64,000 nt of DNA from the human T2T-CHM13v2.0 reference genome, Homo sapiens. Below the pieces are notes generated by a model, which did not search any database, had not been told where the DNA came from, and saw only the letters and a program-made list of their open reading frames with translations. Below are positions 25,401-28,400 of the stretch, piece after piece; position 1 is the stretch's first letter, and each line of letters starts with the position of its first letter. The stretch lies in assembly GCF_009914755.1 (NCBI RefSeq), contig NC_060931.1; one strand, written 5' to 3'. Position numbers and translations under genes: made by a program.

Positions 25401-28400
25401 TCCCCCAACGCCTGTGTGGTCTCCCCTGCCCCCAGCTCACTGCTGTCCCCACCCCCGCCCAGGAGCCCACGTCGTCGAGGGCAGGGGCAGAAGCGCCGGC
25501 TGACTTATAATTAGCTTTTACTGGGTGCTCTGTCTCTCCTAATCCTTTGAAAGGGGGCTGCCAGGGCGGCCGGGACGTTATGATGCTGTAAAACCTCTGT
25601 AATATTTATAAATCCTTTCAGACATCATAAAGAAAAGAACTTCCCCACAGAGTTCATCCCACATAATTACATATACATTTCCTCCGATTAATAAAAAATG
25701 ATCACTTCCGTCTGTGGGAGGTTCTGCCCTTTCTCTGGCACACCTGGCTGTGGCCTCGGCGTCCTCAGTCCCTGCCCCCCACGCCCCCAGCCTCTCATGA
25801 TCCCCCTGGTTACACCCCCACCCTACACTGTCCCAGAGCTCCACGAGGGAGGGAGAGATCATTTTCTTTACAGCACAAGAGTCCTAAACCCTAGGGTCTT
25901 TGCAGCCCAGCTGTCTTGAAAATTCCTTTTGAGAATGGGCCCCTGAAAAATAAAATTCCCCTGAAAGGAACATCTCAGGGAAGAAGGGGGGGTCACCCGG
26001 ATCTGGGTTCAAAGCCTGGCTTGGCTGCTCCCAGCCTCCGTGATGTTAAGAAATTCACTTGTCTTCTCTGAGCCTGTTTCCCCATTTATAAAACCTAGAG
26101 CAGGTCGACCTCAAAGCATCAGGACATGTATTAGACACCTACGGACCTCCAGGCAGGTCCGTCCTGGGGACCCAGGGCTGAATCAGGCCCCGTCTTGGTC
26201 CCCAAGAAGATCACAGTCCCGCTGGTGACAGGCAGTCCATAGAGGCTGACTCGGAGGAGGGACAAGCGCTGAGAAGACAAGACAGAGAAGCCCCTAGGCC
26301 CTCGGGCAGTCAGGAGGTGACAAGCCGAGGCTGACAGCCAAGTCAGAGCTCTGTGCCGAGAGGGACTAACTAATGAGGCAGGTGAGACACAGGCACAGAG
26401 GGACAGCCAGATTGATACCCCGCAGGGAGTCCCCAGGGGCAGGAACCCAGAGCAAGCCCTGCGTCACATGAGGTGCACAGGCAAAGGTGAACAGGGGGAC
26501 CTCGGAGCTCCAGAGGTGCCACGCTGCCCCGAATACTGACCCCCGGCCCTCCCAGGGGGCCCCTGCCCTCAGAGCCACTGCCCCTGTGAAGCCCCCAGGC
26601 CCTGCCCACCTCGTCTCTCTCCACCCTCCTCTTCCTCATTCCCCAGCAGTCCCCACAAAGTCCAGGAAAGCAGAGGCTCAAATCAGGACCCACGTGGAGA
26701 GGAGTCCCGAGTGGGGCAGGTCCAAGCATGGGATCAAGAGCAAAGAGCAGGTCAGACCAGGGACAACATCAGATTAAGGTCAGGAAGGTCAGTGAGAGGC
26801 AGGATGAATTCAGGCAGGAGGTGAAGGTCAGAATCACACACAGAGTCAAGGTCACAGAACAAGGTCAAAGTTGAGAAATGAGGCCGGGCGCTGTGGCTCA
26901 CGCCTGTAATCCCAGCACTCTGGGAGGCCGAAGCGGGTGAATCACTTGAGGTCAGGAGTTCGAGACCAACCTGGACAACATGGTGAAACCCCGTCTCTAC
27001 CAAAAATACAAAAAAAAAAAAATAGCCATGTGTGGTGGCGGGCGCCTGTAATCCCAGTTACTCGGGAGGCTGAGACAGGAACCTCACTCGAAGCCAGGAG
27101 GTGGAGGTTGCAGTGAGCCGAGATCGAGCCACCGCACTCCAACCTGGGCAACAGAGTGAGATTCTGTCTAAAAAAGAAAAGGAATTGCGGAGTGAGGTCA
27201 GGGGCAGGGGCAGGGGCAGGGGCAGGGGCAGGGGCAGGGGTGGGAGGGAGGGGACCGCAGTGCTGAAGCCAGAGACACAACAGCCACAGGCCTGAGCTCC
27301 CCAGGGAGGAGGTGGAGGTGAGAGGAAGGTAGCTGTGGCAGAGCAGAACAACCCCAGCCTACCATGGTCTGGAGAGCTCCCTGGAGCTGCAGTTGGCCTG
27401 GGGATAGCTCAGAGATGGCCCTTAAATAGTGGTCCTCCCAGGGCCCCTGGCATGCACCGGGCCCAGTGTGGAAGGTGATCCATGACAGGATGGAGACCTC
27501 CCTGCCAGGCACCTGCCTTGGGCCATTCAGAGTGGATAGGGTTGGGGGGAATCCGTGGGCAAATACCACGGACGCAGGGACTGCCTAAGCCTCCAGGATC
27601 TCCGAGAGCCCTGGGCCAACTGTTTTCTCTAGAGCCAAGGGACCAAGACCCAGGAAGGGGCATTTGGCCAAGGACACAGAGTAAGTTGAGGCTGCCTACC
27701 CCGATGGGAAGACTTGGCCTTGAGCCGTCAGGGAGTGTTGCCCAGGGTGGGGCCACCCATGCTGGCTGGGACCCACTCAGACTGCAGTGTGGCCGGACCT
27801 CTGGAGCCGTGGGACTCTGGGTGGGACATCACCCTCTAGGAGGCTCAGCCATCTCATAGGAATAGGGGGGAGTGTATGAAACCCCTGGTCTGCTTATGGA
27901 GAGAGTTTCTGCACCAACCTGGCCCTCGGGGGCCCCTTCTACCAATATGCCTATTATCAGGGTGTCCATTAAGCACCCCCAGGCCAGGGGACCCCCTCAG
28001 GGCACTGAAATGCTCAATGAACAGAGAAAGCAACAGGACAAATAAAAGAAAAATGGGGTGGGCGCAGTGGCTCACGCCTGTAATCCCAGAGCTTTCGGAG
28101 GCCAAGAGGGAAGGATCGCTTCAGGCCAGGAGTTCAAGACCAGCCTGGGCAACATAGTGAGACCCCTATCTCTACAAAATATCAAAAAAATTAGCCGAGC
28201 ATGGTGGTGTGCTCTTGTAGTCCCACCTACTCAGGAGGCTGAGGCAGGAGGATTGCTTGAGTCCAGGAGTTTGAGGCTGCAGTGATCTATGATTGTGCCA
28301 CTGCACTCCAGCCTGGGCGACAGAGTGAGATATTGTCTCTTAAAAAAAAGAAAACAGAAAACTGGAGGTGACTCTGATGAGGAAGAACTGAAAAATGAGA

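What the first reader, a model, noticed from the sequence alone, without database searches (positions are those of the whole stretch)
27357..27432. Hidden ancestral first exon and TATA promoter predicting an Alu-free 167-aa MYL10
Seen: the minus strand reads CTATTTAAGG (27429-27420), about 55 nt, then ccagaccATG|gtaggc. That is a TATA-like box, a Kozak ATG and a 5' splice site directly after the ATG. Known: sarcomeric RLC genes (MYL2, MYLPF) have an exon 1 encoding only Met, spliced in phase 0 to an exon starting A-P-K/R. Inference: splicing 27363 to 24136 and skipping the Alu cassette gives [19 protein letters not shown]...HGEEKD, 167 aa. This product has an intact EF-hand 1, an X-P-R NTMT1 methylation motif at the N-terminus and S15/S16 kinase sites. 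It is probably the functional protein, while the 226-aa form I recall from human annotation has two Alu-derived segments.
Basis: partly seen in the sequence, partly recalled or inferred. Interest (0 to 1): 0.8.

Follow-up and report, generated by a model that had tools for sequence, protein, structure and literature searches.

The report
Unannotated ancestral ATG-only first exon of MYL10
Human MYL10 still carries the old first exon that supplies only the start codon, as in other muscle myosin light-chain genes, and using it would give the normal 167-residue protein seen in other vertebrates instead of the annotated 226-residue form with two Alu-derived inserts.

Summary
On the minus strand, CTATTTAAGG lies at 27429-27420. 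cagaccATG|GTAGGC has its ATG at 27365-27363. Joining 27363 to 24136 and skipping the Alu cassette gives an open 167-codon frame.

The ancestry claim is well supported.
- Exon 2 begins at residue 2 of full-length MYL2 and MYLPF chains.
- Three human paralogues have an upstream ATG|GTGAGT, with a TATA-like box in two.
- Blue whale, vole and bighorn MYL10 models begin M-APRR. The human join matches the whale protein at 162 of 167 residues.
- Mouse, ferret and mink models read through the same exon and end ...QTM before APRR. They map to 27363-27467 with unchanged spacing between the TATA-like box and the ATG.
- It is one of only two ATG|GT sites in the interval and is single copy.

Across seven anthropoid models the Alu-coded parts differ at 11.5% and 17.6% of residues, against 1.0% for the core and 0 for exon 2.

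Not shown: use of the exon in humans, and that the TATA-like box sets the start site. No RNA data or non-human DNA were available. This is probably an annotation gap of a known kind. Interest is moderate.

The parts
27420..27429 (-). TATA-like box CTATTTAAGG (TATTTAA at 27422-27428), 63 nt upstream of the ATG
   Evidence: In the frame of the ATG it reads H-Y-L-R. Mouse reads H-Y-L-K, and ferret and mink read R-Y-L-K, at the same distance of 22 codons from Y to M.
27363..27398 (-). Candidate exon 1. The 3' end is fixed at 27363. The 5' end near 27398 is inferred from the TATA position only. The roughly 33-nt leader has no upstream ATG.
   Evidence: for the sequence. The best tblastn hits of the mouse and ferret N-termini end exactly at 27363. 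The region is single copy in the genome.
27363..27365 (-). Initiator ATG, the only coding triplet of the exon, in the context cagaccATGg
   Evidence: Q-T-M is invariant in human, mouse, ferret and mink.
27357..27362 (-). 5' splice site GTAGGC
   Evidence: 6/9 consensus matches and U1 duplex -7.7 kcal/mol.
24137..27362 (-). Proposed intron 1, phase 0 (T2T-CHM13 chr7:102,944,137-102,947,362)
   Evidence: It holds Alu-like copies at about 26901-27105.
24044..24136 (-). Exon 2, 31 codons, [18 protein letters not shown]...EFKE
   Evidence: Its residue 1 aligns to residue 2 of full-length MYLPF (7qio_P) and MYL2 (5tby_E). It shows 0 of 217 residue differences across 7 anthropoid models.
23792..23893 (-). 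Alu-derived cassette exon (34 codons), skipped in the proposed product
   Evidence: One search shows antisense Alu sequence. 42 of 238 residues differ across 7 anthropoids. It is absent from the bonobo X2, rhesus X1 and titi models.
28925..29180 (-). RefSeq exon 1. Its 26 coding codons (28925-29002) lie in antisense Alu sequence.
   Evidence: Its peptide matches at least 7 other Alu copies in the window by tblastn. 21 of 182 residues differ across 7 anthropoids.
27513..27796 (-). Conserved block upstream of the TATA-like box. It is homologous to the first coding exon of a plains zebra MYL10 model, which ends at a CAG|GT matching human 27513|27512.
   Evidence: tblastn of the P0085 N-terminus: 27796-27638 at E 2e-6 and 27728-27513 at E 6e-4.
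13347..22944 (-). Remaining coding exons shared by both products: 22869-22944, 21968-22072, 16092-16170, 13534-13582, 13347-13445
   Evidence: Hub table, and the splice sites and phases. 9 of 945 residue differences across 7 anthropoids.

Best explanation
Window 27363-27365 on the minus strand is the human orthologue of the ancestral first coding exon of the sarcomeric regulatory light-chain genes. That exon contributes only the initiator ATG and is spliced in phase 0 to an exon that starts A-P-K/R.

In human MYL10 it sits in a single-copy block between Alu insertions. It lies 3.2 kb upstream of exon 2 and 1.6 kb downstream of the annotated Alu-derived exon 1. Its strong Kozak context, its GT donor and a TATA-like box 63 nt upstream are all intact.

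Splicing 27363>24136 and skipping the Alu cassette 23792-23893 gives a 167-residue light chain with a free M-A-P-R N-terminus and an uninterrupted EF-hand 1.

Shown here: the sequence elements, the frame arithmetic, orthology to the exon used in rodent and carnivore gene models, and identity of the product with the conserved vertebrate protein.

Inferred:
- The exon is still used in humans (my odds about 0.55).
- The TATA-like box sets a start near 27398 (about 0.5).
- The 167-aa form, not the 226-aa form, is the one under selection (about 0.6).
For: 1. Exon 2 residue 1 aligns with residue 2 of full-length MYLPF and MYL2 chains, so one Met codon is missing upstream.

2. In the same genome, the chr12 (MYL2), chr16 (MYLPF-like), chr7:44.3 Mb (MYL7-like) and chr4 (MYL5-like) genes have exon 2 starting right after the Met codon behind a cag acceptor. 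The first three each have exactly one ATGGTR within 1.5 kb upstream, always ATG|GTGAGT. TATA-like boxes lie at -79 in the chr12 gene and -86 in the chr16 gene. The chr7 gene has none by my patterns, only a CC(A/T)6GG element at -88. The candidate's box is at -63.

3. Of 95 stored proteins with the exon 2 motif, 11 begin M directly before it. These are blue whale (167 aa), vole, bighorn sheep, lungfish, six frog models and a ray MYL11. Three more (mouse X1, ferret X2, mink) end an in-frame extension with ...QTM before it.

4. The human frame through the candidate reads [25 protein letters not shown]. Mouse reads EEHYLKSHPKLSPDLPQHSKARQTM: 12 of 25 identical, no gaps, BLASTP E 0.003. Ferret and mink share GALQTM and YLK at the same spacing.

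5. By tblastn against the whole window, the best hit of the mouse N-terminus is 27437-27363 (E 0.002). The best hit of the ferret N-terminus is 27467-27363 (E 0.004). Both end at the ATG.

6. The zebra model's first exon maps just upstream, at 27513-27796 (E 2e-6).

7. Only 2 ATG|GT sites exist in the interval, and the composite motif is expected about 0.025 times there. The block is single copy.

8. The human 167-aa join matches blue whale MYL10 at 162/167 residues and goat at 164/167.

9. Residue differences between human and 7 anthropoid 226-aa models are: Alu N-terminus 21/182, Alu cassette 42/238, exon 2 0/217, core 9/945.

10. The EF-hand_1 profile matches positions 1-28 in the 167-aa whale protein but only 4-28 in the 226-aa orangutan protein.

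11. The donor is comparable to the annotated MYL10 donors.
Against: - No human RNA, CAGE or peptide evidence could be consulted.
- The hub's RefSeq table lists no exon or functional element at 27.4 kb.
- The donor GTAGGC (6/9) is weaker than the GTGAGT (8/9) of the three paralogues.
- Cross-species support rests on translated gene models, not on DNA alignments. The individual E-values are modest (0.002-0.004). The mink N-terminus alone gives E 0.12 at this place, and its best hit lies elsewhere.
- In the mouse, ferret and mink models the TATA-like box is inside the reading frame. Some transcripts there must start upstream, so the box may be conserved as exon sequence rather than as a promoter element.
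- No primate model beginning M-APRR appeared among the listed cluster representatives. Clustering at 90% identity could hide one.
- Most mammalian models listed have other, heterogeneous N-termini.
- Seven or more anthropoid models carry both Alu segments in frame.
Confidence: 0.8

Rival explanations
1. Relic exon. The sequence is the ancestral exon 1, but anthropoids no longer use it. The Alu-derived exon 1 at 28925-29180 has taken over, and the 226-aa protein is the real human product.
For: - RefSeq's selected transcript NM_138403.5 uses the Alu exon and the cassette (hub table).
- 226-aa models with both Alu segments in frame exist for orangutan, gibbon, mangabey, gelada, marmoset, squirrel monkey and owl monkey.
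- No primate M-APRR model was listed.
- The donor is weaker than in the paralogues.
Against: - The Alu-coded residues change 11 to 18 times faster than the core, which is not expected of essential coding sequence.
- The cassette interrupts the entering helix of EF-hand 1.
- Cassette-free primate models exist: bonobo X2, rhesus X1 and titi.
- The ATG, Kozak context, GT and TATA-like box are all still intact in human.
- Many predicted primate models may lean on the human reference protein. This point is an inference.
Confidence: 0.3
2. The exon is used, but the TATA-like box is not the promoter. Transcripts start further upstream, in the conserved block 27513-27800 or in distant first exons. The ATG-bearing stretch is then the 3' part of a longer first exon or an internal exon.
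For: - The mouse X1, ferret X2 and mink models read 5, 22 and 58 residues beyond the YLK triplet.
- Ferret and mink diverge from each other just upstream of SYCPD, which suggests an acceptor there.
- The zebra model has a first exon mapping to 27513-27796 with its own donor.
Against: - The Y-L-[KR] triplet over TATTTAA is invariant at fixed spacing in four species, while neighbouring residues vary.
- The chr12 (MYL2) and chr16 (MYLPF-like) paralogues have TATA-like boxes at similar distances.
- The two modes are not exclusive.
Confidence: 0.35
3. The main Alu-free human product starts immediately upstream of exon 2. Exon 2 is extended 5' into intron 1, with ATG at 24217 and a 27-residue extension MPWEV...SQ.
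For: - The frame is open in human from 24274 through exon 2, with M at 24217 (P0002).
- Bonobo X2, owl monkey, snub-nosed monkey, rhesus X1 and titi models start in this stretch.
- RefSeq lists another first exon at 24498-24575 and an enhancer at 23784-24711 (hub table).
Against: - The extension is translated intron with no counterpart in non-primate M-APRR proteins.
- It buries the A-P-R N-terminus that the paralogues expose.
- The 24498-24575 exon holds no ATG.
Confidence: 0.2
4. Chance resemblance. The ATG|GT and the TATA-like box are unrelated to the gene's history.
For: 68 ATGGT sites occur on the minus strand of the window. Composite sites arise by chance about 0.7 times per 64 kb on both strands.
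Against: - Two independent orthologue N-termini have their best window hit here, ending at the ATG.
- The spacing is identical in four species.
- About 0.025 chance sites are expected in the interval.
Confidence: 0.03

Closest known systems
First exons of human MYL2, MYLPF and MYL7. Loci L002, L003 and L009 were named from their exon 2 peptides. The MYL2 name is backed by PDB 5tby_E. The other two names are recalled.
   Same: Exon 1 ends in the initiator ATG followed by GT. Exon 2 starts at codon 2 behind a cag acceptor. The leader is short. A TATA-like box lies 79-86 nt upstream of the ATG in the chr12 and chr16 genes.
   Different: The donor is GTAGGC rather than GTGAGT. The intron is 3.2 kb, against 0.27-1.3 kb. 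The block is sandwiched between Alu insertions. The exon is absent from the RefSeq table supplied.
MYL10 gene models of other mammals: blue whale P0031 (167 aa), vole P0022, bighorn sheep X2 P0028, mouse X1 P0089, ferret X2 P0091, mink P0092
   Same: The junction is the same, M|APRR. The whale protein has the same length, 167 aa, and is 162/167 identical to the human join. The mouse, ferret and mink extensions align to 27363-27467.
   Different: These are automatic predictions. Mouse, ferret and mink choose an upstream in-frame ATG. In human that frame has no upstream ATG before the stop at 27585-27587.
Human RefSeq MYL10, NM_138403.5, 226 aa
   Same: Exon 2 and the five 3' coding exons are the same.
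   Different: It starts in an antisense Alu (26 codons) and includes an antisense-Alu cassette of 34 codons between ...EFKE and AFTIMD....
Alu exonization in coding sequence. This general phenomenon is recalled from the literature and no paper was read here.
   Same: Antisense Alu supplies an ATG and a CAG|GT donor for exon 1. For the cassette it supplies a poly-T-derived acceptor tract and a donor.
   Different: Here two Alu exons sit in the reference coding sequence itself. An intact ancestral alternative remains beside them.

Membership tests
Sarcomeric regulatory light-chain gene architecture (ATG-only first coding exon) | Exon 2 begins at codon 2 in phase 0, directly after the initiator Met | tested here: met
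   residue 1 of exon 2 aligns to residue 2 of 7qio_P and 5tby_E; the boundary is the same in the chr12, chr16, chr7 and chr4 paralogues.
Sarcomeric regulatory light-chain gene architecture (ATG-only first coding exon) | An upstream exon ends in ATG and is followed by a GT donor | tested here: met
   ATG|GTAGGC, 6/9 consensus, U1 duplex -7.7 kcal/mol; the paralogues have ATG|GTGAGT.
Sarcomeric regulatory light-chain gene architecture (ATG-only first coding exon) | The exon is orthologous to the one used in other species | tested here: met
   at the level of translated gene models only (mouse, ferret, mink). A DNA alignment was not possible.
Sarcomeric regulatory light-chain gene architecture (ATG-only first coding exon) | A core promoter lies a short distance upstream and drives a short leader | tested here: inconclusive
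   TATTTAA lies at -63, against -79 and -86 in two paralogues; the third has no TATA-like match. However, orthologue models read through the box.
Sarcomeric regulatory light-chain gene architecture (ATG-only first coding exon) | The exon is transcribed and spliced to exon 2 in human tissue | not testable with these tools
   No RNA or CAGE data were available. Papers found mention the gene only at gene level.
EF-hand regulatory light chain (Pfam EF-hand_1, EF-hand_6, EF-hand_7) | Complete first EF-hand: entering helix, loop and exiting helix | tested here: met
   Tested on the whale 167-aa orthologue, which is 162/167 identical to the human join. EF-hand_1 matches profile positions 1-28 at residues 29-56. 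The 226-aa orangutan form matches only positions 4-28. The human join itself could not be sent to the tool.
NTMT1 (NRMT1) substrates | N-terminus X-P-[KR] after removal of the initiator Met | tested here: met
   This is a motif match only. A-P-R follows the junction. The motif comes from the abstract of 10.1101/2020.04.13.040139 (listing) and passages of PMC10293735, which also state that human MYL2 and MYL3 are methylated by NTMT1.
NTMT1 (NRMT1) substrates | Alpha-N-methylation actually present on the protein | not testable with these tools
   Needs N-terminal proteomics.

The most novel reading that the evidence does not exclude
Anthropoid MYL10 runs two programmes from one gene. The ancestral promoter and ATG-only exon give the canonical 167-aa light chain in specialised muscle fibres. 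The Alu-born exon 1 with the Alu cassette gives a 226-aa protein with a buried N-terminus and a split EF-hand 1. On this reading the 226-aa protein is a non-functional by-product, so the reference human protein is not the form that selection maintains.
Probability: 0.4. Interest if true: 0.6.

Novelty: new member of a known kind. Interest (0 to 1): 0.45.

Why it matters
If the exon is used, the reference human MYL10 protein (226 aa, two Alu-derived segments) is not the conserved product. The human gene set would then lack the isoform annotated in whale, sheep and vole.

That would change several things:
- Variant interpretation. The start codon, donor and promoter at 27357-27429 would become functional sites.
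- Proteomics databases, which would need an N-terminal (methyl-)APRR peptide.
- Design of expression constructs and antibodies.

It also illustrates how a one-codon first exon escapes annotation when an Alu-derived exon offers a longer open frame. The kind of element is long known, and the orthologous exon is already modelled in other mammals. This is an annotation correction rather than a new mechanism.

Tried and rejected
- Searching protein collections with the 128-aa open frame over the candidate (27198-27584), to catch translated contigs of other mammals. The word-index search scored none of 115 candidates. The exhaustive search gave 2 hits to long proteins with 5-12 repeated stretches, which I did not inspect and took as low-complexity matches, not homologues.
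- AlphaFold2 of the 226-aa orangutan form and the 167-aa whale form, with the same 29-row alignment. Mean pLDDT was 47.6 and 50.7. Both are too low to use, and no fold search was run. The low-confidence DSSP strings show one helix across the junction (24-37) in the 167-aa model and two helices (49-60, 87-97) in the 226-aa model. I place no weight on this.
- Literature, none of it relevant to transcript structure:
  - MYL10: 199 papers, 30 listed, judged from titles and abstract starts only.
  - PLRLC: 3 papers.
  - MYL10 with Alu: 3 papers, irrelevant by their titles and abstract starts.
  - MYL10 with 'exoniz': 0 papers.
  - MYLC2PL: 8 papers, of which passages of two were read and both were gene-level only.
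  - 'regulatory light chain 10': 7 papers.
  - One search was badly framed and returned spindle papers without MYL10.
- The original mouse PLRLC paper (PMC556751) is not held. Supplements were not consulted.
- MEF2 reading of the box: CTATTTAAGG did not match the MEF2 pattern CTA(A/T)4TA(A/G), recalled from memory, in my scan, so I treat it as TATA-like.
- The chr4 (MYL5-like) paralogue has 3 ATGGTR sites upstream. I did not resolve which is its exon 1.
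Full report
**What is in the sequence**

Read on the minus strand, the window shows CTATTTAAGG at 27429-27420. It then shows cagaccATG with the ATG at 27365-27363, followed at once by GTAGGC at 27362-27357. The T of TATTTAA lies 63 nt upstream of the A of the ATG.

Exon 2 of MYL10 begins at 24136 behind ...ctacctcgcag. The RefSeq coding sequence adds up to 681 nt, 226 codons. 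Replacing its first 78 nt by the single ATG and leaving out the 102-nt exon 23792-23893 gives 504 nt, 167 codons. The frame is open, ends at the same stop, and every junction is in a compatible phase.

RefSeq exon 1 takes its ATG, its 26 codons and its CAG|GT donor from antisense Alu sequence. The 34-codon cassette is antisense Alu as well. The 26-residue peptide of exon 1 finds at least seven further Alu copies on the same strand of the window by tblastn.

**Is it more than chance?**

- On the gene strand only two ATG|GT sites lie between exon 2 and RefSeq exon 1. The other, at 25121, has a 5/9 donor, no purine at -3 and no TATA-like box.
- I defined a composite site as a TATA-like box 40-100 nt upstream, an ATG|GT donor with at least 6 of 9 consensus matches, and a purine at -3. 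It occurs once on each strand of the window.
- 200 second-order Markov simulations gave 0.675 such sites per 64 kb on both strands. By my arithmetic that is about 0.025 in the 4.8-kb interval.
- The donor's computed duplex with the U1 5' end is -7.7 kcal/mol. The annotated MYL10 donors range from -4.8 to -9.1, and the value is in the best 3.6% of 1500 random GT sites. It is weaker than the -8.7 of the paralogues' ATG|GTGAGT.
- The 231 bases 27330-27560 match nothing else in the genome, so the block is not a repeat. Alu-like copies flank it at about 26901-27105 and 28075-28274.

**The missing Met codon is ancestral**

- The 31 residues of exon 2 align from their first residue to residue 2 of full-length MYLPF (7qio_P) and MYL2 (5tby_E) chains in the Protein Data Bank.
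- A search of the window's own genome with exon 2 found the paralogous exons.
- In the chr12 (MYL2), chr16, chr7:44.3 Mb and chr4 genes, the exon likewise starts right after the Met position behind a cag acceptor. The non-muscle genes on chr18 and chr20 carry the ATG inside the exon.
- The chr12, chr16 and chr7 genes each have exactly one ATGGTR within 1.5 kb upstream, in every case ATG|GTGAGT.
- TATA-like boxes lie 79 nt (chr12) and 86 nt (chr16) upstream of the ATG. The chr7 gene has a CArG-like element at -88.
- The chr4 gene has three candidate sites that I did not resolve.
- The names MYLPF, MYL7 and MYL5 for these loci are my recall. MYL2 is backed by the identical PDB peptide.

**Orthologues**

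A protein search with the open frame around exon 2 returned named vertebrate MYL10 models. Of the 100 proteins stored, 95 carry the exon 2 start motif.

- Eleven of these begin with M directly before the motif. They are blue whale (167 aa, a cluster of 8), a vole, bighorn sheep X2, a lungfish, six frog models and a ray MYL11.
- The human 167-codon join is identical to the whale protein at 162 of 167 positions without gaps, and to a goat model at 164 of 167.
- Most other mammalian models have heterogeneous N-termini. Some are translated intron ending in ...SQ before APRR. Others use different upstream exons. This is what one expects when a one-codon exon is hard to find, but it also means M-APRR is not the majority model.

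**The decisive comparison**

Three models carry an in-frame extension that ends ...QTM before APRR: mouse isoform X1, ferret X2 and mink.

- The human frame through the candidate reads [25 protein letters not shown].
- The mouse model reads EEHYLKSHPKLSPDLPQHSKARQTM. That is 12 of 25 identical with no gap, BLASTP E 0.003.
- Ferret and mink read ERYLKSRPREPPALLRPEGALQTM.

In a four-way alignment Y, L, P, A, Q, T and M are invariant, and Y to M spans 22 codons in each species. Y-L-[KR] is the translation of TATTTAA[GA], and Q-T-M is cagaccATG.

Against the whole 64-kb window, the best tblastn hit of the mouse N-terminus is 27437-27363 (E 0.002). The best hit of the ferret N-terminus is 27467-27363 (E 0.004). 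Both end exactly at the ATG. The longer mink query gives only E 0.12 here and has its best hit elsewhere.

The first exon of a plains zebra model maps just upstream, at 27796-27638 (E 2e-6) and 27728-27513. It ends at a position that in human is CAG|GTGCCT at 27513|27512.

So the exon, its junction and the A/T-rich box are shared with rodents and carnivores. I could not align DNA of other mammals, because no such collection is available here.

**Which protein is under selection?**

I compared the human model with seven anthropoid 226-aa models: orangutan, gibbon, mangabey, gelada, marmoset, squirrel monkey and owl monkey.

| Segment | Residues differing | Percent |
|---|---|---|
| Alu-coded N-terminus | 21 of 182 | 11.5% |
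| Alu cassette | 42 of 238 | 17.6% |
| Exon 2 | 0 of 217 | 0% |
| Remaining core | 9 of 945 | 1.0% |

- The gene is therefore constrained in primates, but the Alu-coded parts are not.
- Both Alu insertions are shared by New World and Old World lineages, so they are old.
- The cassette sits between ...EFKE and AFTIMD.... The Pfam EF-hand_1 profile is matched from position 1 in the 167-aa whale protein (residues 29-56), but only from position 4 in the 226-aa orangutan protein (residues 91-115).
- Cassette-free primate models exist: bonobo X2, rhesus X1 and titi.
- The free A-P-R N-terminus fits the X-P-[KR] motif of NTMT1. A review states that human MYL2 and MYL3 are methylated by NTMT1 (passages of PMC10293735; abstract of 10.1101/2020.04.13.040139 in the listing). 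In the 226-aa form this motif is internal.

These points favour the 167-aa form but do not prove it. The core is also part of the 226-aa protein.

**Caveats**

- In the mouse, ferret and mink models the TATA-like box lies inside the reading frame, so transcripts there begin upstream of it.
- Ferret and mink differ from each other just before SYCPD, which suggests an acceptor there and use of the stretch as an internal exon.
- The box may therefore be conserved as promoter, as exon, or as both.
- Several primate models start in intron 1 just upstream of exon 2 (MPWEV...). That frame is open in human, with its ATG at 24217. RefSeq lists another first exon at 24498-24575, which holds no ATG.
- No primate representative beginning M-APRR was listed. 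Clustering at 90% identity could hide one, and I could not check GENCODE or UniProt isoforms.
- Literature searches found nothing on MYL10 transcript structure or its Alu exons. The original mouse PLRLC paper is not held.
- The AlphaFold2 models of both forms were of too low confidence to use.

**Verdict**

The reading 'hidden ancestral first exon' is well supported, at about 0.9 for orthology. The predicted 167-aa product is the conserved vertebrate MYL10. Use of the exon in humans, the role of the TATA-like box and the claim that the 167-aa form is the functional one remain inferences, each at about 0.5-0.6.

This is a new human member of a long-known kind of exon, already modelled in other mammals. 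It is a likely gap in the reference annotation rather than a new mechanism.

Noticed in passing
window 27513-27796, minus strand: This block upstream of the TATA-like box is homologous to the first coding exon of a plains zebra MYL10 model (E 2e-6). The model's exon ends where human has CAG|GTGCCT at 27513|27512. In human the corresponding frames contain stops. It may be an alternative first exon or promoter-proximal region.
   Followed up: partly
window 30505-30652, minus strand (beyond the annotated 5' end of MYL10 at 29180): The N-terminal extensions of a water buffalo MYL10 model and of an unnamed metaclust protein align weakly here (E 5e-4 to 0.05). The mink model aligns nearby at 30362-30541 (E 0.02). 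This may be a distal alternative first exon conserved in other mammals.
   Followed up: no
window 28433-28561, minus strand: The N-terminal extension of a pangolin MYL10 model aligns here (47% identity over 47 residues, E 1.7e-6). The site lies between RefSeq exon 1 and the candidate exon.
   Followed up: no
window 24137-24274 and 24498-24575, minus strand: The exon 2 frame stays open 46 codons upstream, with an ATG at 24217. Five primate models (bonobo X2, owl monkey, snub-nosed monkey, rhesus X1, titi) start in this stretch. RefSeq's other first exon, 24498-24575, has no ATG.
   Followed up: partly
window 24038-24043, minus strand: The donor of exon 2 is GAG|GTTGGT, with T at +3, which is unusual. 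Its U1 duplex is -6.1 kcal/mol. The chr12 and chr16 paralogues read V-G after EFKE, and MYL10 does too, but with GTT for the V codon. A weak exon 2 donor might bear on the choice between the Alu cassette and exon 4.
   Followed up: no
window 27200-27245, minus strand: A (CCCCTG)n simple repeat lies about 120 nt downstream of the candidate donor, inside the proposed intron.
   Followed up: no
core exons, residue after KAD in the exon 16092-16170 region: All anthropoid models read KADVIKEKL where non-primate mammals read KADFIKEKL. This is a lineage-wide F-to-V change in an otherwise frozen core.
   Followed up: no
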